Positions 267 through 15,349 of a DNA stretch of 64,000 bases are shown here, in pieces. A program made the translations under genes and the position numbers. This DNA is from Pseudomonadales bacterium. Lineage in GTDB: Bacteria; Pseudomonadota; Gammaproteobacteria; Pseudomonadales; JAUIET01. The stretch is from NCBI GenBank assembly GCA_045106985.1, contig JBGCFQ010000011.1, forward strand, positions 131,890 to 195,889. Reading direction: 5' to 3'. The stretch's first letter is position 1. Each line of letters begins with the position of its first letter. The notes beneath the pieces were generated by a model. The model ran no database searches. It saw only the letters and a list, made by a program, of their open reading frames with translations, and was not told the DNA's origin.

Positions 267-2318
267 TTAGTCTCGTCGTCTTCTACGTCGCCTACCACCC
301 TCTCTCTCTGCGCTCACGGGTGTGGCTTTTGCAACGGGCCTATTTACAACTGAAAAGAGGTTTGGAAAATCGTCTGTTTTATGTGGAAACGCCATAGCGC
401 CAACAAAGTGTTCCTGGAACTTAGGCTCTACGGCCGTTTCAATTTTCTCTATGCGATCAACTAGGTCTTCTATCGTGCGTCGCGCTTGCTTATTTAACAG
501 CGCAATTCGCGCACCAGTGCCTGCAGCGTTGCCTGCGGAGGCAACTTTTTCCAAGGGGCAATCAGGAATCAATCCCAGAACCATCGCATGCTTGACGTCA
601 ATATGGCTACCAAAGGCACCGGCTAAACGAATACGATCAATTTGAGTAATCTCTAACTTTTCCATTAAGAGTTTTACACCGGCGTATAAAGCCGCCTTCG
701 CGAGCTGAATTTGACGCACATCATTTTGTGTCACCGAAATTACACGGTCGTCTTCGCCACTACCATCGTCGTACAAAACGTAAGACCAGGTCCGATCATT
801 GGGAATTACTCGAGCCGACTGGTGCTCTTCTTTACCAGCAAGGTCACCATCAATAACACCGTCTTCAGAAATTATTCCAGCAAGATACATCTCGGCAACT
901 ACCTCGATAATGCCAGACCCACATATTCCATTAACACCGAGCTTCTCAGCATGTTTTGCAAAACCCTCTTCATTAGACCAAAGCTCAGATCCTATGATAC
1001 TAAATCGCGGTTCCTTACTAACAGGATCAATACGAACACGTTCTATAGCGCCTGGGGCAGCTCTCTGTCCCGAGCTGATCTGTGCTCCTTCAAAAGCAGG
1101 ACCAGTAGGGCTGGAACAGGCTAACAATCTATCTTTGTTACCCAAAACAATTTCGGCATTGGTACCAACGTCAACCAACAAAGTGATTTCATCGAGCAAC
1201 TGCGGCTCTTCAGAAAGCACCATTGCAGCAGCATCAGCACCTACATGGCCAGCGATACATGGCAAGACGTAGGCCCGACCACCTGGATGAATCTCTAAGT
1301 CCAACTCACTGGCGTGAATATCCAGGGCATCATCAGTCGCTAGCGCAAAGGGCGCGCCGCCCAACTCCAACGGGCTTATACCTAGCAGTATATGATGCAT
1401 GACCGGATTGCCGACCAGTGTTAGCTCCAGTATCTCATTGCGCGCCGTATCGCTCTCCTCGGTTATCTGACCGATAAGCGCGTTCAAACCTTCGCGCACA
1501 ACATTTGTCATAGCCTCGGCGCCTTCTGGATGCATCATTACATACGAGACGCGGCTCATGAGGTCTTCGCCGAAACGAATCTGGGGGTTCATCATGCTGC
1601 CAGAGTGAACAACTTCGCCCGTTAACAAATTACACAAGTGTGCCGCTACCGTAGTAGACCCTACATCGACAGCCAGTCCGAAGGCACGCTCACGCAAACC
1701 TGGCCATAAGGCGATTATTTGAGTCTGTCGATACACCGCAGTAGTAACCGACCACTTTCCTTCACGAAGCGTCGGCTGCAAGGTTTTGAGTAAAGCAAAG
1801 TCGCAGCTCAGCCCAGTAAGCTGCCACTCGCGCTCGAGCGCTTCTTTAAGGCGCTGAAAATCACCTTTAGGCTCGTGCATATCGGCTTCAGCAACTTCAA
1901 CGTAGTGCAAACAAACGGCCGCGTCTAAAACGATATCTCGAAGGTCAGCGTCTTTTCGAACAATTTGCTTATGTACCTGACTGTCTGGCGGCACATCAAC
2001 GACTAAATCACCCTGTATCAACGATTGGCAACTGAGCCTGCGTCCTTTTCGCAGCTTCGACCGCCGCTCTTCAAAGCTCCGTTCGGTATCGGTAAAATCA
2101 TTAAGATGATCGAGGCTGGAGGTAAGACCGTGTTTTTGGAACTGCCCTTCGGAACATTCAATCTGACAGCGACCGCACAAACCACGGCCTCCGCAAATTG
2201 AGTCAATATCAACACCAAGATTCTGTGCCGCTTGCAAAACGGGTGTTCCCAACGCGAAGTTGCCACGCCGGCCTGATGGCATGAAAACTACTTTGGCTGT
2301 GTGCTCTGAGCTATTCAT
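267..2318 (-). CDS. corrinoid reductive activase (RACo/RamA-like): N-terminal plant-type 2Fe-2S ferredoxin domain plus ASKHA ATPase domain
   Basis: 683 aa. The N-terminus carries CGGRGLCGRCQIEC (2Fe-2S ferredoxin). The remainder looks like the COG3894/DUF4445 ASKHA domain (GLAVDVGSTT, LLVDVGTNAEIVLG). It ends in an Arg-rich tail, EREGGRRRRRRRD. The operon context is corrinoid methyltransferase genes. Confidence 0.8.
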   Translation of the reverse strand: MNSSEHTAKVVFMPSGRRGNFALGTPVLQAAQNLGVDIDSICGGRGLCGRCQIECSEGQFQKHGLTSSLDHLNDFTDTERSFEERRSKLRKGRRLSCQSLIQGDLVVDVPPDSQVHKQIVRKDADLRDIVLDAAVCLHYVEVAEADMHEPKGDFQRLKEALEREWQLTGLSCDFALLKTLQPTLREGKWSVTTAVYRQTQIIALWPGLRERAFGLAVDVGSTTVAAHLCNLLTGEVVHSGSMMNPQIRFGEDLMSRVSYVMMHPEGAEAMTNVVREGLNALIGQITEESDTARNEILELTLVGNPVMHHILLGISPLELGGAPFALATDDALDIHASELDLEIHPGGRAYVLPCIAGHVGADAAAMVLSEEPQLLDEITLLVDVGTNAEIVLGNKDRLLACSSPTGPAFEGAQISSGQRAAPGAIERVRIDPVSKEPRFSIIGSELWSNEEGFAKHAEKLGVNGICGSGIIEVVAEMYLAGIISEDGVIDGDLAGKEEHQSARVIPNDRTWSYVLYDDGSGEDDRVISVTQNDVRQIQLAKAALYAGVKLLMEKLEITQIDRIRLAGAFGSHIDVKHAMVLGLIPDCPLEKVASAGNAAGTGARIALLNKQARRTIEDLVDRIEKIETAVEPKFQEHFVGAMAFPHKTDDFPNLFSVVNRPVAKATPVSAEREGGRRRRRRRD

Positions 2319-2380
2319 AGACTTCTTCAGTGACTACTTCTTCAATGACCATATCTTCCATTATTGGAATAAAGAGACGA

Positions 2381-3286
2381 CTAACCGCGGCTGCGTCTTC
2401 TGCTTGAACGGCCACCACGTGCGCCGCTTTGATCTTCGGTCAATGGCTCACGATATTTTTTAATCCACTTTGAACAGTCCGGATCCCGTCCCATCATTAC
2501 GTCAGCTCCAAGAACGGCTTGCATAACCTCAGCATGCAGTGGGCTGGTAATTGCAGAGGTCATACCTGAAGAGATCGCCATTGTGAGAAACGCACTATTA
2601 ATGCCATTACGATTAGGCAGCCCGAAGCTTACGTTCGACGCCCCACAGGTAGTGTTAACCTTTAGTTCGTTGTGCAAACGACGGACTAGGTCCATGACTT
2701 GCACGCCCGATGTGTTAATAGCACCGATGGGCATAACCAACGGGTCAACGACAACTCGGTCACGCGAAATACCATAATCGGCAGCACGTTCTACAATTTT
2801 CTTTGCCACGTCGTAGCGAACATTGGGGTCTTGGGAAATTCCAGTCTCGTCATTTGAAATTGCAACCACCGAAGCTTCGTATTTCGCCACCAACGGTAGT
2901 ACACGATCCAAACTCTCGTCTTCACCCGTCACTGAATTTACTAGTGCTCGTCCCTGATACACAGAAAGCCCGCTTTCTAATGCCTCGATGATAGAAGAGT
3001 CTATACACAGTGGAACGTCGGTGATTGACTGAACCAGTTGTATCACCTCGGCAAGAATTCGAGGCTCGTCCGCAAGTGGAATACCGGCATTGATATCTAG
3101 CATTTGAGCACCAGCTTCAACTTGCGCAAGTGCATCTGCTTCCACACGACTGTAGTCACCGACCTTCATTTCTTCTGCTAATATTTTTCGGCCAGTAGGA
3201 TTGATACGTTCGCCAATTATTGTGAAACGTTCGTCAAAGCCAATTCTGACTTCTTTCGAAGGCGATGTGATTATAGTGGTTGTCAT
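2381..3286 (-). CDS. pterin-binding methyltransferase (methylcorrinoid:tetrahydrofolate methyltransferase, MtgA/AcsE-like)
   Basis: 301 aa. Shows the dihydropteroate-synthase-like pterin-binding fold pattern (IIGERINPTGRK, MLDINAG, ALVNSVTGE, CGASNVSFGLPNR). The C-terminus is basic: GARGGRSSRRRSRG. Confidence 0.8.
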   Translation of the reverse strand: MTTTIITSPSKEVRIGFDERFTIIGERINPTGRKILAEEMKVGDYSRVEADALAQVEAGAQMLDINAGIPLADEPRILAEVIQLVQSITDVPLCIDSSIIEALESGLSVYQGRALVNSVTGEDESLDRVLPLVAKYEASVVAISNDETGISQDPNVRYDVAKKIVERAADYGISRDRVVVDPLVMPIGAINTSGVQVMDLVRRLHNELKVNTTCGASNVSFGLPNRNGINSAFLTMAISSGMTSAITSPLHAEVMQAVLGADVMMGRDPDCSKWIKKYREPLTEDQSGARGGRSSRRRSRG

Positions 3287-3363
3287 AAAATTTCCTGCTG
3301 GGTGTTTTTAAGATTAATCTGATAGATGTCGATAATTTTCTAGAACATCTGCATTAAACCGCG

Positions 3364-4398
3364 CTATGCAACGGAAAGATCCGTAGGTTCATATAACCGT
3401 GGATGCCACGGAGTACGTCCCGCCAGAACTCCGGATCGCTCTACTATTTCAGGCACATTATGCTCTTGGCGGTACGCCATGATATGCACACCGTGCACAC
3501 CCTCTATTTCCTTTACTTCGTTGATGATATCGACGCATAGCTGAACACCCTCTTTAGCTTGGTCTTCGGCTCCTTTTAAGCGTTTAATCACAGCGTCAGG
3601 AATATGCACGCCGGCTACATTGGAACGTATCCATTCGGCTGTTCGTGCTGAGGCTAAAGGCCCCACTCCAACAAGAATAAACACCTTTTCATGCAGGCCC
3701 ATGTCACGGACTTTGTTCATATACGTTTTGAACATTTCAACATCAAAACAGTATTGAGTTTGAATAAACTGGGCACCCGCCTCTATTTTTTTCGCTAAAC
3801 GAAAAGGTCTGTAATCAAATGGAGGGGCAAATGGATTCGCAGCACCACCAAGAAACATATGCGGAGGGTGAGTCAGCTTGCGACCGCTAAGAAAGCGGCT
3901 CTCATCGCGCATCGTTCTTATCATTGACAGCGACGACATGCAGTCAAGATCGAACACGGGTTTGGCATCCGGGTGATCGCCACATTGAACGCCATCACCA
4001 CTCAGGCACAACACATTGGTCACACCCATTGCTGCGGCGCCCAAAACATCACCCTGGATGGCTATTCGGTTTCTATCGCGACCTGATATTTGAAGAACCA
4101 TTGCATAACCCTTACGAGTTAGCAGTGAACACATACCCACACTCGACATATGGCAATGCGCGCCAGACCCATCGGTGGCATTCATGGCGTCTACATAACC
4201 ATCAAAAATTTCAGCTCGTTCGTATACTTCAGCCGGATCGGCCGAGTCAGGTGGAGCAATTTCTGTTGTTACTGCGAAATGTCCTGCCCGCAAGACACGT
4301 TCTAGACGACCTGGCGATACATGCCCCGGAAGAATTGGCAGGGCATAGCCTGGAGGTGGCTCATCATCATAGATCGGAGAGCTTGGTACTTTGTTCAT
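3364..4398 (-). CDS. metF: methylenetetrahydrofolate reductase (MetF family)
   Basis: 344 aa. MetF-like TIM-barrel pattern (AVTTEIAPP, VDAMNATDG, ISGRDRNR, LCLSGDG, FLGGAANP, GAQFIQTQYCFD). Confidence 0.8.
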   Translation of the reverse strand: MNKVPSSPIYDDEPPPGYALPILPGHVSPGRLERVLRAGHFAVTTEIAPPDSADPAEVYERAEIFDGYVDAMNATDGSGAHCHMSSVGMCSLLTRKGYAMVLQISGRDRNRIAIQGDVLGAAAMGVTNVLCLSGDGVQCGDHPDAKPVFDLDCMSSLSMIRTMRDESRFLSGRKLTHPPHMFLGGAANPFAPPFDYRPFRLAKKIEAGAQFIQTQYCFDVEMFKTYMNKVRDMGLHEKVFILVGVGPLASARTAEWIRSNVAGVHIPDAVIKRLKGAEDQAKEGVQLCVDIINEVKEIEGVHGVHIMAYRQEHNVPEIVERSGVLAGRTPWHPRLYEPTDLSVA

Positions 4399-4443
4399 AC
4401 TTATCGAGTTCGTGGTAAAAGGACTAAGTAATAGAATTAATCG

Positions 4444-4899
4444 CTATAACGCATTTATTCGTTGTTCAACTGCACGTAGCCAGGCGGACTTGCCTTTAAG
4501 ACGAGAGTCCAACGGCGGCTGTATGATTTGAATGGCTTGGTCGTTTACAGGCAGGTTTTGTGTACCCTCCCAGGCAACAACCCATACACAATCCATCTCT
4601 GGCGTCACTTCGCACTTGCCATTGCTACGTACGCCGCCGCAGGGACCATTACGAATTGTCTTTGGGCAATTCATTGGGCAGGACATTCCAGTGGACCCTA
4701 AGGTGCATTGGCCGCAAGACTGTGAGTCGAACAACAGACTTTTAACGGGTTTTTCAATCGCAATTAGAATGCGATCTACGCGTTGCATGCCAATCTTTTC
4801 GAATAAAGGGTACAAACGGACCAACAAAGACTCCACGCCTTCGTAGACCGCGTGCATAAGCTTCGAGTGTCGAGCAGACCATTTTCTAGCTCGGTACAT
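4444..4899 (-). CDS. MetV-like Cys-rich protein (MTHFR C-terminal-domain family), probable small subunit of MetF
   Basis: The track ORF is 4444..5022. I trimmed it to the ATG at 4899 (MYRARKWSARH...), which overlaps the upstream stop by 14 nt. Contains a Cys cluster: CGQCTLGSTGMSCPMNCPKTIRNGPCGG...GKCEV...DCVW. Confidence 0.7.
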   Translation of the reverse strand: MYRARKWSARHSKLMHAVYEGVESLLVRLYPLFEKIGMQRVDRILIAIEKPVKSLLFDSQSCGQCTLGSTGMSCPMNCPKTIRNGPCGGVRSNGKCEVTPEMDCVWVVAWEGTQNLPVNDQAIQIIQPPLDSRLKGKSAWLRAVEQRINAL

Positions 4900-5227
4900 C
4901 GTCCCTCCCGGTTGCCACCGCAACGCCGCCATTCTTGACCATTTCATCCAAAACGGAATCTGGAAACTCGGCCTCAACCTTCGCCATTTCTTCCTGTGCA
5001 CAAGCATCAAGGTCGCCGTCACACTCTATGGGGGTCATCTCTTGACGCCACTGTTGTACATAAGAATCGGTATCACCCATGCCAGCGCGCATTGCAGCGC
5101 GGTCCACTGCCTCATGAAACCGTGCCGCGAACAGCGCCTTTCCTTTAGTGCGCCCGCGTTTTATATTTATTTGGGTAGGAATATCCCGCCAAAATACTGT
5201 AATTTTCTGAGCCCCGGATCGAGCCAT
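4886..5227 (-). CDS. small conserved protein, function unknown (resembles the family annotated 'virulence factor' domain that accompanies MetF/MetV; the name is from memory only)
   Basis: 113 aa. Operon position is between DUF1638 and the MetV-like gene, with a 14-nt overlap onto the next gene. N-terminus is ITVFWRDIPTQINIKRGR. Confidence 0.6.
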   Translation of the reverse strand: MARSGAQKITVFWRDIPTQINIKRGRTKGKALFAARFHEAVDRAAMRAGMGDTDSYVQQWRQEMTPIECDGDLDACAQEEMAKVEAEFPDSVLDEMVKNGGVAVATGRDDVPS

Positions 5228-5256
5228 AGTTACGCCCTACTCTATAATGTGTGCTG

Positions 5257-5877
5257 TTAGCCTTTCGCTATTAACGATTCAAGACTGGTTTGTAGCTCAC
5301 CGTAACCGGTGCGCTGGTATACATACTCAAGCTTTAATCTGTCAGCTGCTGCTTGCGCCTGCTTCTGTAAGTCCTGATCATCGGTTTGCGCGAGATAAAC
5401 AAGGCGTCGATAGTTCGCGAAGTACATCTCTTCCAATTCAGGATGCTTATCAATCTTCAAGCCACGAATCATTAGCCGATCAAAATGACGGGTTAAGAAA
5501 TCAGTCAGGTACAACGTACCCGGCTCTTGATCAGCCAATTCCAGAAAGTCTTGTTGCCCAGAAAAAAAAGAATAGCAGTGCGGACCAGGCAATCTCTCCA
5601 GGCCATACTCAGCTATTATTTTGTCGATTTCACCACCTGTTCCACAGTCTGCATAACCGACAAAGATTTGATCGTATTCATCACGATATTTACTTATCGC
5701 TTCACGCAATCGATCAGGAATCCATTCTGGGCGGTTATGCAACTCCGCTGGCAGGCACTGCAGTTTTAGATGCGACCAGCCATTCGATTTTTTTATTTGC
5801 TCTATTTCTTTAGCTATCGCGCCGCAGGCGATAATAAGAGTGTCTTGAGGCTTCTGAGCTGGATCGGCCATGGTCAA
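5257..5877 (-). CDS. DUF1638-family protein (commonly linked to corrinoid methyltransferase genes)
   Basis: 206 aa. Pattern: LIIACGAIAKEI...LHNRPEWIPDRL...YADCGTGGEID...PHCYSFF. Sits immediately downstream of the corrinoid protein. Confidence 0.7.
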   Translation of the reverse strand: MTMADPAQKPQDTLIIACGAIAKEIEQIKKSNGWSHLKLQCLPAELHNRPEWIPDRLREAISKYRDEYDQIFVGYADCGTGGEIDKIIAEYGLERLPGPHCYSFFSGQQDFLELADQEPGTLYLTDFLTRHFDRLMIRGLKIDKHPELEEMYFANYRRLVYLAQTDDQDLQKQAQAAADRLKLEYVYQRTGYGELQTSLESLIAKG

Positions 5878-5923
5878 GATCTTTCGGAGTAGCCTATGGC
5901 GAGTCAGACGAGCAACATCCGCG

Positions 5924-6628
5924 TCACGCGGACTGCTTCGTCTTCACCATAGCCAAACCCACGCTGGCTGCCGTTGCAGCATCTCGGCAATAGGCATCTG
6001 CGCCGACGGCTTCGCCGAACTCTTCGTTCAACGGCGCGCCGCCAACTAATACAATAAAGTCGTCGCGCATGCCCTTCTCTTTCAAGGTGTCAATCACTAC
6101 CTTCATATATGGCATCGTCGTGGTTAACAATGCAGACATGCCTAACACATCAGGCTTGTGTTCTTCGAGAGCATCGAGGTAGGAATCAACATCATTATTG
6201 ATTCCAAGATCAACAACCTCAAAGCCGTTGCCCTCCATCATCATGGTAACCAGGTTCTTACCGATATCATGAATATCACCTTTGACAGTACCGATGACCA
6301 TTTTGCCGATTGGCTTTGCGCCAGTTTCAGCAAGTAACGGCCGTAGAATACCCATTCCGCCTTTCATCGCGTTTGCCGAAAGCAACACTTCAGGCACAAA
6401 CAATATTCCATCGCGAAAATCGATACCAACAATTCGCATACCTTCAACTAGCGCATCTGCCAGCACCTTTTCCGGGCCCCAGCCTCTTGCTAGCAAGATG
6501 TTGGTACCTTCCATGATTTCATCTCGCATGCCATCATAAAGGTCGTCATGCATTTGTTCGACTAACTCGTCATCCGATAATTCTTCAAGATTGAGTTCTT
6601 CTTCGTCGTGGCCATCTTGTTCTGACAT
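5924..6628 (-). CDS. cobalamin-binding corrinoid protein (MtgC/MttC-like)
   Basis: 234 aa. Carries the B12-binding DxHxxG motif (GDIHDIGKN) followed by SALLTTT and GGAPLN. About 29 aa at the N-terminus form an acidic extension (MSEQDGHDEEELNLEELSDDELVEQMHDD). Confidence 0.85.
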   Translation of the reverse strand: MSEQDGHDEEELNLEELSDDELVEQMHDDLYDGMRDEIMEGTNILLARGWGPEKVLADALVEGMRIVGIDFRDGILFVPEVLLSANAMKGGMGILRPLLAETGAKPIGKMVIGTVKGDIHDIGKNLVTMMMEGNGFEVVDLGINNDVDSYLDALEEHKPDVLGMSALLTTTMPYMKVVIDTLKEKGMRDDFIVLVGGAPLNEEFGEAVGADAYCRDAATAASVGLAMVKTKQSA

Positions 6629-6690
6629 GGATTGATCCTCTTCTTATGATTGAGCTTAAGCAGCTCAGCCGATATTCTAGTAGTAAGTAT

Positions 6691-8247
6691 CTAGTATTCT
6701 TTATCTGGAAACGCTGACTTTCGTTGGTCGATAAATGCAATCAAAGCTTCATCTATAGCGGGGTCTAGTGCCGGCGCTTGGTAGTCCGACAACGCCGCTT
6801 TCCAGCGTTTATTCGCCAACTGCGCGCAATCAAGCGCCCCGTCTTCTTCCCATTGTTCAAAACTGTTATTGTCGGCTAAAGTCGAACGATAGAAAGCAGT
6901 CTCGAAATTTGCTTGCGTGTGTTCGGTGCCGAGGAAATGATTGCCCGGTTCAATCTCACGGAATGCACTCATCGCCTGGCCATTCTCAGACATATCCGGA
7001 CCTCGAAGCAATACACCAAGCATGTTAGCCTGATCAGCATCCATCATGAATTTTTCATAGCTCATGACCAAGCCGCCTTCAAGCCAGCCGGCCGTATGCA
7101 GCATAAAATTAACGCCAGCGAGAGCCGCTGTCTGTAAAGTGTTAGCCGCTTCATAGGCAGCTTGCGCATCGGGCAACTTCGAGGCGCACAAACCACCACC
7201 GCTCCTAAATGGTACACCTAGGCGACGCGCTAGTGCAGCGGCAATGTAAAGAATCATGCTGGGCTCAGGCACACCAAAGGTGGGCGCTCCGGACTGCATG
7301 GACACCGCGCTTGCAAATGTACCAAATACAACGGGGGCACCCGGGCGAACCATTTGAGCAAAGGCCATACCAGCCATTGCCTCTGCCAATATTTGAGTGG
7401 ATGTTCCGGCAACTGTCACCGGCGACATTGCGCCGGCAAGAATAAACGGCGATATTACAGTAGCCTGCATATTGCGCGCATACACCTTAAGCGCACCTAA
7501 CATCGTATCGTCAAACGTCATCGGTGAATTGGCGTTTATAAGGCTGGTGCAGACTGTGTTGTTTTCAACGAACTCATCGCCGAACACAATCTTAGCCATA
7601 TCAACTGTGTCCTGGGCTCGCTCTGGCGCGGTCACCGAACCCATAAATGGCTTGTCGCTGTATTTTATATGGCTATACACCATATCAAAGTGACGTTTGT
7701 TCACTGGAAGATCGACCGGCTCGCACACTGTGCCGCCTGAATGCTGCAGGCCATCGCTTAAGTAAGCCAATTTTACGAAGTTACGGAAATCTTCAATCGA
7801 TGCGTAGCGTCGACCTTTATCGAGATCTCTCACAAAGGGAGAACCGTAGGCCGGCACCATAACTGTGCGGCGGCCACCAATGATTGTACTTTTGGCGGGG
7901 TTACGAGCGTGCTGGGTGTATTCAGAGGGTGCAGACGCTTGAATTATGCTGCGACAAAGGCCACGTGGAAAACGAACACGTTCACCCTGAACGTCGGCGC
8001 CACCGGCTTTAAGAATATCGAGCGCTTCCTGGTCGTCGCGAAAATCGATACCTATTTCTTCTAATAAGGTATCAGCATTATGTTCAATTAAGGCCAATCC
8101 CGACTCATCGAGCATTTCGTAGTAAGGTATATTGCGATCGATGTAGGGCAAGTAATTGGTTTGATTGCCCTGCCGCGAAGCTTGTTTACCGCTTCGTCCA
8201 CCCGCTTTTCTTCGACTACGTCTTTCGCTCATAGGGCACAATTCCAA
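6691..8247 (-). CDS. MttB-superfamily (trimethylamine methyltransferase family) substrate:corrinoid methyltransferase, non-pyrrolysine type
   Basis: 518 aa, continuous ORF with no in-frame TAG. Family pattern: NIPYYEMLDESGLALIEHNADTLLEEIGIDF...FPRGL. The N-terminus is Arg/Lys-rich (SERRSRRKAGGRSGK). An alternative start is the ATG at 8232. Confidence 0.8.
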   Translation of the reverse strand: MELCPMSERRSRRKAGGRSGKQASRQGNQTNYLPYIDRNIPYYEMLDESGLALIEHNADTLLEEIGIDFRDDQEALDILKAGGADVQGERVRFPRGLCRSIIQASAPSEYTQHARNPAKSTIIGGRRTVMVPAYGSPFVRDLDKGRRYASIEDFRNFVKLAYLSDGLQHSGGTVCEPVDLPVNKRHFDMVYSHIKYSDKPFMGSVTAPERAQDTVDMAKIVFGDEFVENNTVCTSLINANSPMTFDDTMLGALKVYARNMQATVISPFILAGAMSPVTVAGTSTQILAEAMAGMAFAQMVRPGAPVVFGTFASAVSMQSGAPTFGVPEPSMILYIAAALARRLGVPFRSGGGLCASKLPDAQAAYEAANTLQTAALAGVNFMLHTAGWLEGGLVMSYEKFMMDADQANMLGVLLRGPDMSENGQAMSAFREIEPGNHFLGTEHTQANFETAFYRSTLADNNSFEQWEEDGALDCAQLANKRWKAALSDYQAPALDPAIDEALIAFIDQRKSAFPDKEY

Positions 8248-8453: not shown

Positions 8454-9158
8454 TCATGAATTAGTATGCGCCCTAACAAAGGCTTGCATATGGAAAGCCG
8501 CATGCTCTGGGTGATACTGATACTCCTGAGCCACTGGACAGGCACGCCTAGCGAGGCAACCCCGCTTATTACACTCTGCGTCAGGTTTACTCTTCAGATA
8601 TGAAGCACACTTATCAACATCGTAGTGTCCTGGCGAAAATGCCTCAACAGGGCAAGCGCGCAAGCAAGGTTGTGAATAACATGTATCGCAACGGGATATA
8701 GCACGAGGGCGGGTAGTGTCTGACAAACCATATTCAACGTTGCTCGCAACCAAGGCAAATCGGTAAGCATGCCAAAGACCGTATTCTTTATGAATATGCA
8801 CCCCTAGTTGAGATGTCGCTGATAAGCCTGCCCGCTCAGCCCAGCTCAAAAACGGCCAATATGGCGGCCCCTCGGACGGAAAGAGCACTGAGCAACCGTG
8901 TTGTTCGGCAATAGACTCCCCTACTCTTTTGCTCCATCGATCTAAACTGTGCTGCTTGCCGTCAAGGCATTCATTTGAACAGCTGAAACCAGGCCAAAAT
9001 GTTGACCCAAAAGACCCTACTAAAATGATCGACGCTGGTTCGCGTAGGCCTAACCCTGCCAACTCGCTTCCTTCTGCTCGTACAACGGCCAACATATCCA
9101 AACCGAATACCTGAACTCGCTTACGTATATTTTGAAGCAGATCGCTTGTACTTGTCAT
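8454..9158 (-). CDS. 4Fe-4S cluster protein, QueG/reductive-dehalogenase-like C-terminal region
   Basis: 234 aa. Cys motifs: CDTCYSQPCLRACPVEAF and CASYLKSKPDAECNKRGCLARRACP. Same strand as the mttB-like gene and 206 nt upstream of it. Confidence 0.55.
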   Translation of the reverse strand: MTSTSDLLQNIRKRVQVFGLDMLAVVRAEGSELAGLGLREPASIILVGSFGSTFWPGFSCSNECLDGKQHSLDRWSKRVGESIAEQHGCSVLFPSEGPPYWPFLSWAERAGLSATSQLGVHIHKEYGLWHAYRFALVASNVEYGLSDTTRPRAISRCDTCYSQPCLRACPVEAFSPGHYDVDKCASYLKSKPDAECNKRGCLARRACPVAQEYQYHPEHAAFHMQAFVRAHTNS

Positions 9159-9682: not shown

Positions 9683-12499
9683 ATGTTTGAACGAAGCAAA
9701 CTTAGCGCGGCAGTGGCTTCTGCCTTGGCAGTAAGTATATCTGCCGGCACAGCCCAGGCGCAGATGCTCGAAGAAATTATTGTAACGGCTACAAAGCGTG
9801 CAGAAAGCATGCAAGACGTACCTATTTCAATTCAAGCACTGGGCGGCGAAAGCTTGAAAGAGCTTCGCGTAGAGACCTTCGATCGCTACGTAGCTTACTT
9901 ACCCAACGTGGTGAATGCAGGTAACGGACCAGGCAAGAAAGAAATTTACATTCGTGGTACAGCCACAGAGCAATCGTCGGTAACGGTTGGTCCCGCTCAG
10001 GGATCAGCGCCGGGTGTTGCACTCTACTTAGACGAAATGCCTGTTTCCTTCGGCGCACGTAACCTTGATATATACGCTGCTGATTTAGAAAGAATAGAAG
10101 TGTTGGCTGGACCACAAGGCACCTTGTTTGGCGCCAGCTCGCAGTCGGGTACTGTTCGCCTAATTACAAACAAGCCTTCGGTTGAAGGATTTGATGCAGG
10201 TTTTAACTCCAAGTTCTCTAGTACTTCAGGCGGCGGCGAAAGCGCTGCAGCCGATGTCTTTGTTAACATCCCTCTGTCCGATAAGTTGGCTGTGAGAGCA
10301 ACTATATACAGTGACAACCAAGGCGGCTGGATAGACAACGTTCCATCAACCTTTACACCTAGTGGCGCAGTTGTTGACCGCAACAGTCTTGGCTTCGGCC
10401 CCGCGCTCACCGGCGCTGACTCAGTGGCGACCGCTAGAAACGACACCATAGCGTCTGACGATTGGAATGATGCGTCTTATCGCGGTGTTCGTTTAGGCCT
10501 TAAGTACGATATCAATGATGATTGGGATATCTTGGTCCAACACACTGAACAAACCCTTGATGTTGATGGCAGCTTCCTGTCTGATCCAAGCTTGGGTGGC
10601 GATTCGAACGCAGCGAAGTTCATTCCTGAAACAAACAAAGATGAGTTTGGCCTAACGACGTGGACTTTAAATGGTCGTGTAGCAAACCTTGACATCGTTT
10701 ATACCGGGGGATTCCTCGACAGAGACGTAAGCAATAACATCGATTACACCCACTACAACAATGGTGGTGGTTACATAACTTATTACCTGTGTAGCGGTAA
10801 CGTTTACGATGCGACAGACGTTAACAACTGTTTCGACCCGACTAAGCAGTATGCTGAAACAACAACTAATGAGAGAACCACGCACGAATTCAGAATTTCA
10901 ACAGATCCTGATAACCGTTGGAGAGCAATTGGTGGCCTTTACTACAACGATGTTGAAACCACGCACATTGGTGAATTCCAATATCTATCAACTAACGCAG
11001 CTTTTGAAGAGCAAACCAACAGCTATTACAACGATAATCGTGGCGACGGCTTTTTATTGGGCAACACTACCATTCCCAATACTTCGGGCACGGTATCAGT
11101 AGGCCCAAGAAGTCCCGCTACCGTCTTCTTCAACGATTTCACTCGAACAGAAGATGAATTTGCAATTTTTGGTGAGTTTGCATTCGATTTCACTGACACA
11201 GTAAGTGCACGCGTAAGTGGCCGCTATTACAAGCTGACATCAGAATTGGAAGGCGCTTCGAACTTCTCGTTTGGCTGTCGATACGGCGCGGGCGGTTTCG
11301 GCAACTCTGACATAACAGCTGACGGCCGTTGCGATGGAACTGGTTTCAGCAACGACGTAACACAGCGACTGGAATTGTTAGGTCAAGCAAACGCGACTGG
11401 CGATCTAGCTCCAATACTGGCGGCAACGTCCCCGAACGGCGGACGTGATTTCTTCCGTGGTGGCGGTGGCGCATTCCCAGGCTCTAACCAGGCGATTGCT
11501 GATGCAATCACTAGTGGCGGACTGGACATCAGTAACATCGAAACTGATGGCTCTACTGAAGAAGATGACATCATCGTAAAGGCCACTATCGACTGGCGTG
11601 TAACCGACGACATCATGTTGTTTGGTACATATTCTGAAGGCTACCGACCTGCCACTCAGAACCGTAATGCTGGCAGACTAGCCGCCAACCAGACTGGTGT
11701 TTATCTCGGTTACAGAGTACCTACAGTGGCACTGACTGACACATTGACCAACTTTGAATTTGGCATGAAAGGTGAATTTCTTGAAGGCGCTCTTCGCTTG
11801 AACGCGACCCTGTTCTTCTCAGAAATTGATAACCTGCAGGTGTCACGCTTCGACCCATCAAACGTAGCGTTCTTGGTATTCATGGAGAACATTGGCGACG
11901 CAGAGATCACTGGTCTTGATGCTGACTTCCAGTGGGCTGCCACTGAAAACCTGACCATCACCGGTGCTTTTAGCATTCTGGATACTGAGTTGACTCGCTT
12001 AAACCCACAGCTTGATGGCGTAGCGGTTCCGGTTGGTAGCGAGCTGCCACTAAGTTCTGACTTCTCTGGCAACATACGCGCTCGATACGACTTTCCACTA
12101 ACCGCGCTTGGCGGTGACGGCTATGTTTCTGTTGGTGTTAACTATAAGGGCGACAGTGCTGCGGGGATCGTAGGAAGTGCTGCATTCCTTGAAGATACGT
12201 TGCTGTTAGCAACAGGTCGAAGCTCAGGACTGGAAATCCAGAACGAAGGTGGCAATTTTGGTACTGTTGACCTTTCAACGGGTGGCTTACCATCCAACTC
12301 GCGTTACGTGAACCCTGCGTCTACTACAATTAACCTCTCCGCCGGTGTCAACAAAGATTCCTGGACAGCTGAATTGTTCGTAGACAATGTTGGTGACGAG
12401 GAAGCTACCTTTGTACAAACTGCTGGTAAGTTCACGCCTGAGGTAACTAATCAGCGACCACGCACAGTTGGCTTACGTGTTTCATACGACTTTGAATAA
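9683..12499 (+). CDS. TonB-dependent outer-membrane receptor
   Basis: 938 aa. Signal peptide (…SAGTAQA/QM), plug-domain motif EEIIVTATKRAESMQDVPISIQAL and a C-terminal beta-barrel ending RTVGLRVSYDFE. Confidence 0.9.
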   Translation: MFERSKLSAAVASALAVSISAGTAQAQMLEEIIVTATKRAESMQDVPISIQALGGESLKELRVETFDRYVAYLPNVVNAGNGPGKKEIYIRGTATEQSSVTVGPAQGSAPGVALYLDEMPVSFGARNLDIYAADLERIEVLAGPQGTLFGASSQSGTVRLITNKPSVEGFDAGFNSKFSSTSGGGESAAADVFVNIPLSDKLAVRATIYSDNQGGWIDNVPSTFTPSGAVVDRNSLGFGPALTGADSVATARNDTIASDDWNDASYRGVRLGLKYDINDDWDILVQHTEQTLDVDGSFLSDPSLGGDSNAAKFIPETNKDEFGLTTWTLNGRVANLDIVYTGGFLDRDVSNNIDYTHYNNGGGYITYYLCSGNVYDATDVNNCFDPTKQYAETTTNERTTHEFRISTDPDNRWRAIGGLYYNDVETTHIGEFQYLSTNAAFEEQTNSYYNDNRGDGFLLGNTTIPNTSGTVSVGPRSPATVFFNDFTRTEDEFAIFGEFAFDFTDTVSARVSGRYYKLTSELEGASNFSFGCRYGAGGFGNSDITADGRCDGTGFSNDVTQRLELLGQANATGDLAPILAATSPNGGRDFFRGGGGAFPGSNQAIADAITSGGLDISNIETDGSTEEDDIIVKATIDWRVTDDIMLFGTYSEGYRPATQNRNAGRLAANQTGVYLGYRVPTVALTDTLTNFEFGMKGEFLEGALRLNATLFFSEIDNLQVSRFDPSNVAFLVFMENIGDAEITGLDADFQWAATENLTITGAFSILDTELTRLNPQLDGVAVPVGSELPLSSDFSGNIRARYDFPLTALGGDGYVSVGVNYKGDSAAGIVGSAAFLEDTLLLATGRSSGLEIQNEGGNFGTVDLSTGGLPSNSRYVNPASTTINLSAGVNKDSWTAELFVDNVGDEEATFVQTAGKFTPEVTNQRPRTVGLRVSYDFE

Positions 12500-12582
12500 A
12501 AACTGAGTTGTAGGATACTAGGGAGAGGACAGGTTCCGCTCTCTAGTCAACATGCCAGACTCTGGTAAGTAAATACAAGAAA

Positions 12583-12607
12583 GGCGAGCTTCGGGCTCGT
12601 CTTTTTT
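12583..12607 (+). terminator. rho-independent terminator after the TonB-dependent receptor
   Basis: GGCGAGC-ttcgg-GCTCGTC forms a 7-bp stem with one G-U pair. It is followed by TTTTTT at 12602-12607. Confidence 0.7.
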
Positions 12608-12641
12608 GCTTTAGCTTATACCTTATTACCACTCCTACTCG

Positions 12642-14675
12642 ATGTTGCGATCTCCAACTATGACTGAACACCAAACGCCCTCCTCACAAGAAGACAAATT
12701 AGCTCTCGCAAGAGAGTTACTCGGTAAGAAACAGTTTAGTGAGTCGGACGCGATAACCAGTGAACTGCTGGCTGAGGACCCTCAAAATATTGACGCCGCC
12801 TATGTGCGAGCCGTTTCGATGCGTTTACAGAAAAAATCGAACTCCAGTCTTGAACTACTTGAACAAGTACTCCAAGACAAACCCGACTATGGCCGCGCCT
12901 TTCAAGAACGCGGATTCAACTACTTAACTCTGAGAGATGTTGCCCAGGCAGGCACAGCATTTGAACGTGCAGTGGCCCTTGATCCGTCATTGCTTGCGAG
13001 CTGGAAGTCTTTAACCGGGTTATACAAGAAGGTTGGAAACAACTCACAAACTGAAAAAGCCCAAGAACAAGTGTCCTTTCTTGAGAAACTGCCAACTGAG
13101 CTACTAACTGTTATCAGCTATATTTCTGAAGGCAAACTTAACGACGCTGAAAGACTGTGCAAATACTATCTTCGCTCAGACAAGCTTAATGTAGAGGGCA
13201 TGCGCCTATTAGCCGAGATCGCAACAAGGCAGAAAGTACTAGATGATGCAGAGTTTCTGCTAGAGACTTGCATAGAGTTAGAACCTGATCATTTGAACGC
13301 CCAAATTCAGTTCATAAATATTCTTCTTAGAGTTCAGAAGTTCAGCAAGGCGTATCAGTACGCAACCGCATTGCTAGAAAAACATCCAGAAGATCGAGCT
13401 CTTGTATTGGCACTGTATGCCTCTGCTTGCACCGGTGTTGGTGAAAACAACAAAGCTATCAGTTGTTACCAAGAGCTCATCAGGGAAACACCAGACAACC
13501 ATTTTTATCAAGTGTCGCTTGCCCATGTCTACAAGTCTGATGGCGATTTTGCGCGTGCTGTAGAGCACTATCAGAAAGCCTACACCATCAGAGCCGATTA
13601 TGGCGACGCCTATTGGAGTTTAGCCAACACAAAGACCTATAAGTTCAGCGACGCAGAAATCGCGCAGATGACGGGTGAGGAACAAAAAGAAAGCACAAGT
13701 CCTGACGATAAAACCCAGCTCTGTTTCGCATTAGGTAAAGCAATGGAGGACAGCAGTAACTTTGAGCAATCATTTCAGTTTTATGAAAGGGGTAATGCAC
13801 TAAAGCTCTCAAGCGTGAAACATAATGCAGTGCAACTGCAGCGGCGAATAGACTCTCAAATTGAGACCTGTACGAAATCACTATTTGAGCAAAGAAAAGA
13901 CTGTGGATTTGACGATGAATCGCCAATATTCATCGTAGGCCTTCCTCGCGCGGGCTCTACCCTGATTGAACAGATTCTCTCCTCACACTCCTTGGTGGAT
14001 GGCACCATGGAGCTACACAACATCCTGAACCTGGCAAAACGCTTACGTGGTCGAGATGAAAGCCCCGGGAGTATGCCGAACTATCCGAAAATTCTGACCG
14101 AGCTAGACAGCGATTACTTCCGTCGCTTTGGCCAACAGTTCATAAATGACACTGCAGCATACAGGGAAAGTGGAACTTACTTTACAGATAAAATGCCCAA
14201 TAACTTTTTTCATGTGGGACTTATAAAATTGATTCTCCCAAATGCCAAAGTAATAGACGCTCGGCGAAACCCAATGGCCTGTTGCTTCAGTGGATTCAAA
14301 CAATTGTTTGGCGAAGGCCAGGAGTTTTCTTACGGCCTGGAAGAAATCGGTAATTACTATCGTCAGTACGTTAAGCTGATGCAACATTGGGACGAGGAAT
14401 TGCCCGGTTTTGTATTGCGAGTAAATCATGAGGATGTAGTTGCTAATCTTGAAACAGAAGTTCGACGGATCCTCGATTATTGTGGTCTCCCTTTCGAACA
14501 AGCATGTTTGGATTACCATAAGACTGAAAGGAATGTTCGAACGCCTAGTTCTGAACAAGTTCGCCAACCTATCTATACCAGCGGTTTAGATCAATGGCGT
14601 AATTTCGAACCCTTTTTGGAGCCATTAAAACAGGCCTTGGGCTCGGATATTCTGCAGAGTTACTCCATTGATTAA
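12642..14675 (+). CDS. TPR-repeat protein fused to a PAPS-dependent sulfotransferase domain (TPST-like Sulfotransfer_3 type)
   Basis: 677 aa. The N-terminal ~420 aa are TPR-like repeats. The C-terminal domain has the 5'-PSB loop GLPRAGSTLIEQIL and a 3'-PB-like segment RNPMACCFSGFKQLF. Confidence 0.8.
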   Translation: MLRSPTMTEHQTPSSQEDKLALARELLGKKQFSESDAITSELLAEDPQNIDAAYVRAVSMRLQKKSNSSLELLEQVLQDKPDYGRAFQERGFNYLTLRDVAQAGTAFERAVALDPSLLASWKSLTGLYKKVGNNSQTEKAQEQVSFLEKLPTELLTVISYISEGKLNDAERLCKYYLRSDKLNVEGMRLLAEIATRQKVLDDAEFLLETCIELEPDHLNAQIQFINILLRVQKFSKAYQYATALLEKHPEDRALVLALYASACTGVGENNKAISCYQELIRETPDNHFYQVSLAHVYKSDGDFARAVEHYQKAYTIRADYGDAYWSLANTKTYKFSDAEIAQMTGEEQKESTSPDDKTQLCFALGKAMEDSSNFEQSFQFYERGNALKLSSVKHNAVQLQRRIDSQIETCTKSLFEQRKDCGFDDESPIFIVGLPRAGSTLIEQILSSHSLVDGTMELHNILNLAKRLRGRDESPGSMPNYPKILTELDSDYFRRFGQQFINDTAAYRESGTYFTDKMPNNFFHVGLIKLILPNAKVIDARRNPMACCFSGFKQLFGEGQEFSYGLEEIGNYYRQYVKLMQHWDEELPGFVLRVNHEDVVANLETEVRRILDYCGLPFEQACLDYHKTERNVRTPSSEQVRQPIYTSGLDQWRNFEPFLEPLKQALGSDILQSYSID

Positions 14676-14710
14676 GCGACCCACATGCGCGCCTTGATAA
14701 GAATAGAATC

Positions 14711-15349
14711 TTGATTATTTCTCATCAGCACAAGTTTATTTTTTTCGCGGTTCCGAAAACCGCGACGCATTCGGTGCGAGAATTGCTTAGAATGCATATG
14801 GGCTCTAGCGACTGGGAGCAGCAAGCTCTTTATGGCAAGCAGGCTCTGCCGATTCCGGCGCTAGCCAAGCTTATTCACGGTCATATCAGTGTGCAGGAAA
14901 TCAAACCCCATTTGGACGCGGCGGCCTGGCAGAATTATGTCAAATTTGGTTTTGTGAGAAACCCTTACGATCGATTTATATCGGTTTGTTTTTTTCTTAA
15001 CAGAAACAATGAACAGTTTGCAGGCCAGGCCTTGAGTTGGATGAAAGCTGCCCTAAGTCGCGACCAATTTCGTCAGCGAATTCTGGTTAGGCCACAATAC
15101 CAGCAACTTATTGATCACAACGGCGATATAGCACTCGACTATGTCGCCAGGTACGAGAGTATTGACAAATCGCTGGTGGAGCTATCCGAATTACTGAAGC
15201 TGCCCTTCTCAGCCTTGCCAACTAAAAACAGTTCAGAGCATGGCGCCTACACTGCCTATTATGATGATGAGTTACGCGAGATGGTCAGCGAGTTCTATCA
15301 GGACGATTTCAAAATGTTCAACTACAGCTATAACTACAAAAGCGAGTAA
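14711..15349 (+). CDS. sulfotransferase family-2-like protein
   Basis: 212 aa with a TTG start. The N-terminal FIFFAVPKTATHSVRELL matches the PKT(A/G)(T/S) PAPS-binding loop of family-2 sulfotransferases. Confidence 0.65.
   Translation: MIISHQHKFIFFAVPKTATHSVRELLRMHMGSSDWEQQALYGKQALPIPALAKLIHGHISVQEIKPHLDAAAWQNYVKFGFVRNPYDRFISVCFFLNRNNEQFAGQALSWMKAALSRDQFRQRILVRPQYQQLIDHNGDIALDYVARYESIDKSLVELSELLKLPFSALPTKNSSEHGAYTAYYDDELREMVSEFYQDDFKMFNYSYNYKSE

What the first reader, a model, noticed from the sequence alone, without database searches (positions are those of the whole stretch)
267..8247. Charge-complementary termini: three partners with Arg-rich tails, corrinoid shuttle with an acidic tail
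This is read directly from the translations. The corrinoid protein starts with a ~29-aa extension in which 14 residues are Asp or Glu (MSEQDGHDEEELNLEELSDDELVEQMHDD). Each of the three proteins that must dock on it carries an Arg-rich, probably disordered terminus:
- the MttB homologue at its N-terminus (SERRSRRKAGGRSGK);
- the methyl-THF methyltransferase at its C-terminus (GARGGRSSRRRSRG);
- the reductive activase at its C-terminus (EREGGRRRRRRRD).

This suggests electrostatic tethering of the shuttle protein to its methyl donor, methyl acceptor and repair enzyme. I am not aware that such a tethering mechanism has been described for these systems.
Basis: seen in the sequence. Interest (0 to 1): 0.65.

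Follow-up and report, generated by a model that had tools for sequence, protein, structure and literature searches.

The report
Opposite-charge tails on B12 shuttle partners
In a known bacterial vitamin-B12 methyl-transfer system, the small B12-carrying shuttle protein has an acidic N-terminal tail and every enzyme that must dock on it ends in a short arginine cluster; this pairing is conserved across several bacterial phyla and probably holds the separate proteins together, though no binding experiment exists.

Summary
The minus-strand operon (267-8247) is the aerobic MtgB/MtgC/MtgD-type corrinoid methyl-transfer system, with a RACo/RamA-type activase, DUF1638, PF13769 and MetF2.

- **In the window:** of about 112 protein termini, only three have at least 5 Arg in 20 residues. 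They are exactly MttB-N, MtgD-C and RACo-C. The only strongly acidic terminus is the corrinoid N-terminus.
- **In orthologues:** across 160 loci from Actinomycetota, Chloroflexota and Alpha/Beta/Gammaproteobacteria, 85/85 MtgD and 71/71 RACo orthologues end in an Arg cluster. MttB orthologues carry an Arg-rich N-terminus, and all corrinoid orthologues carry the acidic extension.
- **New tests passed:** a fourth docking partner outside this operon, the homocysteine methyltransferase MtgE, has the tail in 28/28 close orthologues. A second MttB subfamily has it at the C-terminus instead (112/120).
- **Outgroups:** anaerobe operons and solved structures have none of the tails.
- **Against:** charge counts do not co-vary within the clade, MtgE of a sister clade lacks the tail, and binding is untested.

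Verdict: an undescribed, conserved charge-tail feature of a known system. Electrostatic tethering is the best explanation but remains an inference.

The parts
6691..8232 (-). MttB-superfamily (non-pyrrolysine) methyltransferase, the methyl donor-side enzyme (MtgB-like). The probable start is ATG 8232; the listed TTG 8247 is an upstream in-frame alternative.
   Evidence: PF06253 E=1.6e-223. Closest solved structure is 4YYC, E=1e-227. Orthologues start MSE/MSD just before the Arg region.
8170..8232 (-). Arg-rich N-terminal tail of MttB: MSERRSRRKAGGRSGKQASRQ (6 R, 2 K, 1 E).
   Evidence: Translation. It lies N-terminal to where D. hafniense MtgB (2QNE/9YCE) begins, and about 20 residues beyond the N-terminus of M. 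barkeri MttB. It is conserved as RRxGGRxxRxxxR-like in orthologues and in 35-50% paralogues.
5924..6628 (-). Corrinoid (B12) shuttle protein, MtgC-type: cap domain plus Rossmann B12-binding domain.
   Evidence: PF02607 and PF02310. 100% identical to a Pseudomonadales MAG protein. 72-85% identical across phyla. AF2 model with pLDDT 85.
6563..6628 (-). Clade-specific acidic N-terminal extension, MSEQDGHDEEELNLEELSDDEL. Residues 1-11 (6596-6628) form the free acidic run. Residues 12-17 (6578-6595) form the conserved hydrophobic (L/I/F)x-L-x-x-L anchor. An S-D-D-E helix cap follows.
   Evidence: homologues at 55% identity or more have a 25-32 aa N-region with 8-15 acidic and 0 basic residues; those at 55% or less have 12-14 aa with 2-3 acidic. 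L14 and L17 are invariant. AF2 gives residues 1-8 pLDDT below 50 and residues 11-20 pLDDT 91.
5257..5877 (-). DUF1638 protein (B12 reactivation helper in Phaeobacter genetics). No charged tail.
   Evidence: PF07796; termini; PMC5764234.
4886..5227 (-). PF13769 small protein of unknown function. No Arg tail.
   Evidence: It co-occurs with the tail-bearing clades.
4444..4899 (-). DUF5981 (MetF-associated, MetV-like) protein. The probable start is ATG 4899.
   Evidence: PF12225. Orthologues start MYxVRxWSVRHARGL.
3364..4398 (-). Methylene-THF reductase paralogue (MetF2). No Arg tail.
   Evidence: PF02219; termini; MetF2 role in PMC12478193.
2381..3286 (-). Pterin-binding methyl-THF:corrinoid methyltransferase (MtgD-like).
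   Evidence: PF00809; NF005719 E=4e-108, covering residues 21-285.
2384..2446 (-). C-terminal tail of MtgD: PLTEDQSGARGGRSSRRRSRG (6 R, 0 K).
   Evidence: 85/85 complete orthologues have at least 4 R in the last 30 aa, with a mean of 7.3 R and 0.4 K. MeTr structures end at query residue 280.
267..2318 (-). RACo/RamA-type ATP-dependent reductive activase of the corrinoid protein (2Fe-2S domain plus ASKHA domain).
   Evidence: PF00111, PF17650, PF17651, PF14574; AcsV model E=2e-121. 3ZYY E=7e-94.
270..368 (-). C-terminal tail of RACo: FPNLFSVVNRPVAKATPVSAEREGGRRRRRRRD. The Arg cluster occupies 270-299.
   Evidence: 71/71 complete orthologues have at least 5 R in the last 30 aa. C. hydrogenoformans RACo ends 9 residues after query position 647.

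Best explanation
The operon encodes the aerobic, split corrinoid methyl-transfer system described as MtgBCD. It has an MttB-family donor-side methyltransferase, the MtgC-type B12 shuttle, the pterin-binding MtgD, a RACo/RamA-type reductive activase, and DUF1638, PF13769 and MetF2 with its small partner.

**The shuttle.** It carries a clade-specific N-terminal extension with three parts:
- a short free poly-acidic run;
- a conserved hydrophobic x-L-x-x-L anchor that packs on the protein;
- the very acidic first helix of the cap domain.

**The partners.** Every enzyme that must take turns on the shuttle carries a low-complexity linker ending in a cluster of about 5-9 arginines. These are MttB, MtgD, the activase and, elsewhere in related genomes, the homocysteine methyltransferase MtgE.

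**Most likely mechanism.** The arginine clusters make long-range, low-specificity electrostatic contacts with the acidic N-terminal region of the shuttle. This would raise encounter rate and local concentration while allowing fast exchange between competing partners. It would be a non-covalent substitute for the interdomain linkers of single-chain methionine synthase (MetH).

**Shown here:**
- the tails exist and are restricted to the docking partners;
- charge is conserved while sequence and linker length vary;
- the tails occur in the same clade as the acidic extension;
- they were acquired on several unrelated protein families, at either terminus.

**Inferred, not shown:** that the tails bind the shuttle, that the N-extension is the receptor, and that this affects kinetics.
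For: 1. **Specificity in the window.** Only 3 of about 112 termini have at least 5 Arg in 20 aa, and they are the three docking partners. The only strongly acidic terminus is the shuttle's.
2. **Conservation across phyla in 160 loci.** MtgD 85/85 and RACo 71/71 carry Arg clusters, with almost no Lys, while linker length and sequence vary. MttB has an Arg-rich N-terminus. The shuttle's acidic extension is present in all orthologues.
3. **Out-of-sample prediction.** MtgE, found with the E. coli MetH homocysteine domain as probe, ends in RERRGRRRA-like clusters in 28/28 orthologues at 53% identity or more.
4. **Unbiased scan.** Among 1718 ORFs of at least 200 aa, the only real families with C-terminal Arg clusters are MtgD, RACo and MtgE. 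The N-terminal scan returns only MttB.
5. **Position independence.** A second MttB subfamily lacks the N-tail and has a C-terminal Arg cluster in 112/120 members.
6. **Other operon proteins.** Those not expected to dock on the cofactor face (DUF1638, PF13769, DUF5981, MetF2) have no such tails.
7. **Outgroups.** Solved MtgB, MttB, MeTr, RACo and corrinoid proteins, and three Firmicutes Pterin-Cor-RACo operons, have neither the acidic extension nor Arg tails. The acidic extension appears as a step at about 55% identity.
8. **Location of the extra charge.** Net charge of the whole protein is -26, of which -14 lies in the first 30 residues. Residues 1-8 are predicted disordered.
9. **Precedent.** An N-terminal add-on of a corrinoid protein stabilises a complex: the MtaC N-terminal domain sits in a groove of MtaB (PMC9842639).
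Against: - There are no binding or structural data of any kind.
- Within the clade, the number of acidic residues does not track the number of Arg. Spearman rho is 0.31 for MtgD (p = 0.04, uncorrected for phylogeny), -0.04 for RACo and 0.02 for MttB.
- The acidic extension probably arose once, so its co-occurrence with Arg tails is phylogenetically close to a single event on the shuttle side.
- In a sister clade (shuttle N-terminus MSDEIDITQLETSE...), the in-operon MtgE has no Arg tail, although RACo, MtgD and MttB there do.
- In the more distant P0245-type clade, the RACo tail keeps 4-5 Arg although the shuttle N-region is only weakly acidic.
- AF2 suggests only about 8-10 acidic residues are free. 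In Rhizobiales the free run is only MSDDE.
- PF13769 shows the same clade distribution, so it could be the real receptor.
Confidence: 0.55

Rival explanations
1. The Arg tails do bind the shuttle, but not its free N-terminal run. They bind the conserved acidic face of cap helix 1 (DDELVEQMHDD), or help pull the cap off the cobalamin. Their role would be cap displacement or orientation rather than simple tethering.
For: The DDELxxQMHDDLY segment is nearly invariant across phyla, whereas the free acidic run varies from 3 to more than 10 residues. AF2 orders residues 11-32. In the MttB-MttC complex the cap domain forms the main protein-protein interface (PMC9842639).
Against: No structural test was possible. 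The free acidic run, though variable, never contains a basic residue and is always present.
Confidence: 0.17
2. The Arg tails dock on a different common partner or polyanion. Candidates are the co-conserved PF13769 protein or DUF1638 acting as a scaffold, or RNA, polyphosphate or anionic membrane. This would co-localise the enzymes independently of the shuttle's N-extension.
For: PF13769 is in the operon in the main, sister and P0245-type clades and is absent from the Firmicutes outgroup operons. Its C-terminal half is acidic. Arg-only clusters are typical nucleic-acid or phosphate binders (general knowledge).
Against: By hand count from the translation, PF13769 has a net charge of only about -4. 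DUF1638 also occurs in outgroup operons without tails. This rival does not explain why the shuttle gained a 14-acidic-residue extension in the same clade.
Confidence: 0.12
3. The tails act within their own protein: in solubility or charge balance of very acidic enzymes, in autoinhibition, in oligomer contacts, or in controlling stability or translation. They have nothing to do with docking.
For: The enzyme bodies are acidic, with net charges of -7 to -25. In M. barkeri MttB the N-terminal strands mediate oligomer contacts (PMC9842639). The Arg runs use some rare codons, AGA, AGG and CGA.
Against: Five different families or subfamilies, related only by sharing the shuttle, have the same feature at either terminus. 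Other acidic proteins in the operon and the window lack it. The MttB tail lies beyond the region that forms strands in MttB.
Confidence: 0.1
4. This is compositional noise: Arg-rich low-complexity ends produced by high G+C content or mis-called gene ends, with no function.
For: Many orthologues come from high-G+C genomes, where Arg-rich spurious ORFs abound.
Against: The window has 46-52% G+C and shows the same tails. The C-terminal ends are fixed by stop codons. Presence is 85/85 and 71/71 across phyla at 49-88% body identity. Arg is strongly preferred over Lys.
Confidence: 0.02

Closest known systems
MtgBCD(E) glycine-betaine demethylase / split methionine synthase of aerobic bacteria (Mausz et al. 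2025, PMC12478193; Price et al. 2018, PMC5764234)
   Same: It has the same parts list: a PF06253 MttB-family enzyme, an MtgC-type corrinoid protein, the pterin-binding MtgD, a RamA-like activase, DUF1638 and MetF2. It has the same taxa, including marine Gammaproteobacteria, and operon-type organisation.
   Different: Neither paper mentions terminal charge tails. Substrate was not tested here. No MtgE was found in this 64-kb window.
MtaC-MtaB methanol methyltransferase complex (PDB 2I2X, as discussed in PMC9842639)
   Same: An N-terminal addition on the corrinoid protein stabilises the complex with its methyltransferase.
   Different: There the addition is a folded domain fitting a groove of one dedicated partner. 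Here it is a short acidic segment, and the complementary element is an Arg tail on each of several exchanging partners.
Single-chain cobalamin-dependent methionine synthase MetH
   Same: The same four functions (Hcy-binding, pterin-binding, B12 cap plus Rossmann, reactivation) and the same need for the B12 domain to visit each module in turn.
   Different: In MetH the modules are held together by covalent linkers. Here they are separate proteins, and the charge tails are proposed to replace the linkers.
RACo-CoFeSP activation complex (PDB 3ZYY, 4C1N) and MeTr (1F6Y, 2YCI)
   Same: Homologous activase and pterin-binding methyltransferase folds.
   Different: These proteins end within about 0-9 residues of the conserved domain. 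They have no Arg tail, and their corrinoid partner has no acidic extension.
Hub proteins that use acidic elements to recruit many partners: SSB C-terminal acidic tip and acyl carrier protein (own knowledge); GPIHBP1 acidic disordered N-tail binding LPL (PMC11869522)
   Same: One small acidic hub or tail serves many partners with basic complementary elements. Charge is conserved rather than sequence.
   Different: The proteins and pathway are unrelated. In those systems the basic element is usually a surface patch, not a terminal poly-Arg tail. This is an analogy only, not a test.

Membership tests
Aerobic MtgBCD-type corrinoid methyl-transfer system | MttB-superfamily (PF06253) methyltransferase without reliance on the pyrrolysine-type TMA enzyme | tested here: met
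   PF06253 E=1.6e-223. It scores far below the cut-off of the Pyl-type TIGR02369 model (248 against 525 bits). The ORF is uninterrupted.
Aerobic MtgBCD-type corrinoid methyl-transfer system | Stand-alone corrinoid protein with B12 cap plus B12-binding domains, of the proteobacterial MtgC clade | tested here: met
   PF02607 and PF02310. It is 72-85% identical to homologues in Rhodobacteraceae, Mesorhizobium, Puniceispirillum and others. Direct comparison with R. pomeroyi SPO2160 was not possible because that sequence was not held.
Aerobic MtgBCD-type corrinoid methyl-transfer system | Separate pterin-binding methyltransferase (MtgD) with adjacent MetF2 | tested here: met
   PF00809/NF005719 and PF02219, adjacent in the operon.
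Aerobic MtgBCD-type corrinoid methyl-transfer system | RamA-like (DUF4445/RACo) activase and DUF1638 | tested here: met
   PF14574, PF17651, PF17650, PF00111 and PF07796.
Aerobic MtgBCD-type corrinoid methyl-transfer system | Glycine betaine as the methyl donor, and a dual role in methionine synthesis | not testable with these tools
   Substrate specificity of MttB paralogues cannot be read from sequence here. No MtgE is present in the window.
Electrostatic tether between oppositely charged disordered tails | Terminal low-complexity segments of opposite net charge on the interacting proteins | tested here: met
Electrostatic tether between oppositely charged disordered tails | Charge and composition conserved while sequence and length drift | tested here: met
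   Linkers of 15-55 residues with variable sequence, but 4-11 Arg always present. The acidic run ranges from 3 to more than 10 residues and never includes a basic residue.
Electrostatic tether between oppositely charged disordered tails | Segments are disordered | tested here: inconclusive
   AF2 gives shuttle residues 1-8 pLDDT below 50, but residues 11-20 are ordered. The partner tails were judged only by G/S/P/A/R composition and were not modelled.
Electrostatic tether between oppositely charged disordered tails | Quantitative co-variation of opposite charges between partners | tested here: not met
   Spearman rho is 0.31, -0.04 and 0.02. Only presence/absence co-occurs at clade level.
Electrostatic tether between oppositely charged disordered tails | Direct, salt-sensitive binding of the tails to each other | not testable with these tools
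   No multimer prediction or experiment is available.
Twin-arginine (Tat) signal peptide (considered for the MttB N-terminus) | RR motif followed by a hydrophobic h-region and an AxA cleavage site | tested here: not met
   MSERRSRRKAGGRSGKQASRQGNQTNY has no hydrophobic stretch. The equivalent cluster is C-terminal in other partners.

The most novel reading that the evidence does not exclude
The poly-Arg tail and acidic N-extension form a modular 'address code' that defines which enzymes belong to the MtgC shuttle's interactome. The code evolved when methionine synthase-like machinery was split into separate proteins, and it can be moved to either terminus. It could be used to find new MtgC-dependent methyltransferases by scanning genomes for Arg-tailed TIM-barrel enzymes. 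With oligomeric, multivalent partners it may assemble a dynamic metabolon.
Probability: 0.35. Interest if true: 0.75.

Novelty: new variant of a known kind. Interest (0 to 1): 0.62.

Why it matters
The MtgBCD(E) system is a major route of glycine-betaine demethylation and methionine synthesis in abundant marine and soil bacteria (PMC12478193). How one small B12 shuttle is shared among a methyl donor enzyme, two acceptor enzymes and a repair enzyme is not known.

A conserved charge-tail pairing gives a concrete hypothesis that can be tested cheaply by tail deletion or charge swap. It would explain how a split enzyme compensates for lost covalent linkers. It offers a sequence signature for finding further partners of the shuttle. 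It also matters for reconstituting or engineering these B12 methyltransferase systems, because tagging or truncating the termini could destroy activity.

Tried and rejected
1. **Quantitative charge co-variation within the clade.** No convincing correlation.
2. **A single shared motif 'RR(R)xGGR' in all tails.** Present in only 34/63 MtgD, 3/51 RACo and 9/37 MttB tails, so this is a composition feature and not one motif. 'RRVNRRR' does recur in some MtgD and MttB-subfamily-2 tails.
3. **Tat signal for the MttB N-terminus.** Rejected, because there is no hydrophobic region.
4. **Natural fusion proteins to stand in for a complex model.** P0001 (386 aa) is an assembly duplication, and P0080 and P0103 are upstream mis-starts.
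5. **Multimer or chimeric structure prediction.** Not available under the tool rules. A single-sequence chimera would have been uninformative, so it was not submitted.
6. **Riboswitch or other RNA near the operon.** None; there are only three tRNAs at 59.2-59.6 kb.
7. **Several outgroup look-ups gave corrinoid genes without informative neighbours** (L085-L089, L174, L176).
8. **My first automatic classification called 22 MttB orthologues 'no tail'.** Inspection showed this came from start-codon picking and from a criterion that was too strict for the dispersed Rhizobiales pattern GRRGRGxxGGAAARRAAR.

Full report
**What is in the window.** Coordinates 267-8247 hold one minus-strand operon. In order it encodes:
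- an MttB-superfamily methyltransferase (PF06253, E=1.6e-223);
- a stand-alone corrinoid protein (B12 cap PF02607 plus B12-binding PF02310);
- DUF1638;
- a PF13769 small protein;
- a DUF5981 protein;
- a methylene-THF reductase paralogue;
- a pterin-binding methyl-THF:corrinoid methyltransferase (NF005719, E=4e-108);
- a RACo/RamA-type reductive activase (Fer2, RACo linker, middle and C-terminal domains).

The shuttle protein is 100% identical to one from a Pseudomonadales MAG. This is the parts list of the aerobic MtgBCD glycine-betaine demethylase / split methionine synthase described in Ruegeria and Phaeobacter (PMC12478193; PMC5764234). The system itself is therefore known.

**Checking the observation.** All four quoted termini are there.
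- The MttB protein most likely starts at ATG 8232 (MSERRSRRKAGGRSGK...) rather than at the upstream TTG. Orthologues begin MSE/MSD immediately before the Arg-rich stretch.
- In a crude gene call of the whole 64-kb window (about 56 genes, 112 termini), only MttB-N (5 R), MtgD-C (6 R) and RACo-C (8 R) have at least 5 Arg in 20 residues.
- The only terminus with net charge of -6 or lower is the shuttle's N-terminus, at -10.
- The tails contain 21 Arg and 3 Lys, whereas the bodies of the same three proteins have 80 Arg and 49 Lys.
- The window is 46-52% G+C, so this is not a high-GC artefact.

**Anatomy of the acidic end.** Pfam's cap domain starts at residue 23, and solved corrinoid proteins (1Y80, MttC, MtmC) align from query residues 23-27.
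- Across about 270 homologues the N-region changes in a step. At 55% identity or less it is 12-14 residues with 2-3 acidic residues. At 55% or more it is 25-32 residues with 8-15 acidic and no basic residues.
- The extension has structure: a variable poly-acidic run, then an invariant hydrophobic pattern (L14 and L17 invariant; (I/L/F)-x-L-x-x-L), then S/x-D-D-E-L leading into QMHDDLY.
- AlphaFold2 with a 60-sequence alignment (mean pLDDT 85) leaves residues 1-8 unstructured (below 50). It places residues 11-20 confidently (pLDDT 91) and starts helix 1 at residue 19.
- So the free acidic tail is about 8-10 residues, followed by an acidic helix face.
- Of the protein's net charge of -26, -14 lies in the first 30 residues.

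**Orthologous operons.** A scan of one genome per species with a shuttle alignment found at least 595 species. The best 80 loci span Acidimicrobiia and other Actinomycetota, Chloroflexota, and Alpha-, Beta- and Gammaproteobacteria. A metagenome scan added 80 more loci. The core order Cor-DUF1638-PF13769-(DUF5981-MetF2)-MtgD-RACo is widely kept, with MttB in variable positions.

Tails in these orthologues:
- **MtgD:** 85/85 complete orthologues have at least 4 Arg in the last 30 residues (mean 7.3 Arg, 0.4 Lys). The cluster follows a P/A/G-rich linker of very variable length and sequence.
- **RACo:** 71/71 have at least 5 Arg.
- **MttB:** orthologues and paralogues at 35-50% identity carry an Arg-rich N-terminus such as GRRSGGRAGRQAAR or GRRGRGxxGGAAARRAAR.
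- **Shuttle:** every orthologue has the acidic extension.
- **Other operon proteins:** DUF1638, PF13769, DUF5981 and MetF2 have no such tails.

**Two new tests.**
- *MtgE.* If Arg tails mark enzymes that dock on the shuttle, the homocysteine-binding subunit MtgE should have one. Using the E. coli MetH homocysteine domain as probe, I found MtgE in 15 genome loci, and all 15 end in clusters such as EARRERRRSRA, RERRGRRRA or PRRRGRRG. With the metagenome loci the count is 28/28 for orthologues at 53% identity or more. An unbiased scan of 1718 ORFs of at least 200 aa for C-terminal Arg clusters returned only MtgD, RACo and MtgE as real families. The rest were off-frame ORFs of high-GC genomes. The N-terminal scan returned only MttB.
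- *A second MttB subfamily.* An MttB paralogue about 25% identical to the window's enzyme lies directly upstream of the shuttle gene in L009. It lacks the N-tail but ends ...ASRRRRTARSVAL. In 120 members of that subfamily, from Rhodobacteraceae, Rhizobiales, Chloroflexi, Gammaproteobacteria and others, 112 have a C-terminal Arg cluster and none has an N-terminal one.

The same feature has therefore been placed on at least five families or subfamilies, at either end. What they share is the shuttle.

**Outgroups.**
- D. hafniense MtgB (2QNE/9YCE) starts at about query residue 33. M. barkeri MttB aligns with a 20-residue offset, so the Arg stretch is an add-on.
- The close structural-genomics homologue 4YYC does contain the Arg stretch.
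- MeTr structures end at query residue 280.
- RACo 3ZYY ends 9 residues after the conserved domain.
- The curated family models also stop where the tails begin.
- Three Firmicutes Pterin-Cor-RACo operons and several other corrinoid neighbourhoods have no acidic extension and 0-1 Arg at the relevant ends.

Intermediate clades are less tidy.
- A sister clade (shuttle N-terminus MSDEIDITQLETSE..., 6-8 acidic) keeps Arg clusters on RACo, MtgD and MttB, but its in-operon MtgE has none.
- A more distant clade (P0245 type; MSSDIVLNDLTNDDLL) has a RACo tail with only 4-5 Arg.

**Interpretation.** The comparative pattern argues strongly that the Arg tails are functional and tied to use of this shuttle. 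The pattern has five elements:
- restriction to docking partners;
- conservation of charge rather than sequence;
- preference for Arg over Lys;
- convergent acquisition at either terminus;
- clade-level co-occurrence with a uniquely acidic shuttle N-terminus.

I would frame this as a non-covalent replacement for the interdomain linkers of single-chain MetH, permitting rapid exchange among four or five competitors. A precedent for N-terminal add-ons stabilising corrinoid-protein complexes exists in MtaC-MtaB (PMC9842639).

What is not shown is any physical contact, or which acidic element is the receptor: the free run, the helix-1 face, or another protein such as PF13769.

Points against:
- there is no quantitative charge co-variation;
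- the sister-clade MtgE lacks a tail;
- the acidic extension has essentially a single origin.

I put 0.55 on tethering to the N-terminal region, and about 0.7 on 'the tails bind the shuttle somewhere'.

**Novelty.** Full-text searches found no paper linking corrinoid proteins with arginine-rich or acidic tails. The three papers on this system do not mention them. The library is limited to open-access papers and bioRxiv. The system is known and the general principle of electrostatic tethering is known, but this application appears undescribed. That makes it a new variant of a known kind, of moderate-to-good interest because it can be tested immediately and concerns an ecologically important pathway.

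Noticed in passing
window 5924-6628; loci L001-L080: The corrinoid shuttle is 72-85% identical between Actinomycetota, Chloroflexota and Proteobacteria. Its partner enzymes in the same loci are 49-88% identical. This suggests unusually strong constraint on a multi-partner hub, or wide horizontal transfer.
   Followed up: partly
L009:492-2018 and proteins P0390-P0509: A second, widespread MttB subfamily is about 25% identical to the window's enzyme. It carries its Arg cluster at the C-terminus (112/120) instead of the N-terminus.
   Followed up: yes
loci L094, L095, L096, L154 (sister clade): These loci have a different operon order, RACo-Cor-MtgE-DUF1638-PF13769-DUF5981-MetF2-MtgD. MtgE sits in the operon but has no Arg tail in the three loci where its C-terminus is complete (L094, L095, L154); in L096 the gene is cut by the contig end. 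The shuttle N-terminus is less acidic.
   Followed up: partly
window 4444-5022: The DUF5981 gene probably starts at ATG 4899 (MYRARKWSARHSK...), overlapping the end of the PF13769 gene, and not at the GTG at 5022. Orthologues start MYxVRxWSVRHARGL, a conserved basic N-terminal helix-like motif.
   Followed up: partly
window 4886-5227 and orthologues: The PF13769 ('Virulence_fact') small protein is conserved in this operon in the main, sister and P0245-type clades. It is absent from the Firmicutes outgroup operons, and its function is unknown. It is a possible alternative receptor for the Arg tails.
   Followed up: no
window 8454-9158 (-): A 234-aa Cys-rich protein lies just upstream of the operon on the same strand. 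It has no Pfam hit and only a weak QueG-like (TIGR00276) match, so it may be an Fe-S redox protein.
   Followed up: no
window 9683-15349 (+): A TonB-dependent receptor is followed by a TPR-sulfotransferase and a second sulfotransferase. These appear unrelated to the operon.
   Followed up: no
window 59186-59637 (-): Three tRNA genes are the only Rfam matches in the window. No cobalamin riboswitch lies near the B12-dependent operon or the TonB receptor.
   Followed up: no
L082, L084 (P0245-type clade): A compact PF13769-RACo-Cor-DUF5981-MTHFR cluster sits beside a glycine-betaine-type ABC transporter (OpuAC). There is no MttB or MtgD nearby.
   Followed up: no
Chloroflexota MtgD tails (L007, L012, L042, L056, L170) and MttB subfamily-2 tails: The same short pattern RR-V-N-RRR recurs in the tails of unrelated partner enzymes. 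This hints at more than bare charge in some lineages.
   Followed up: partly
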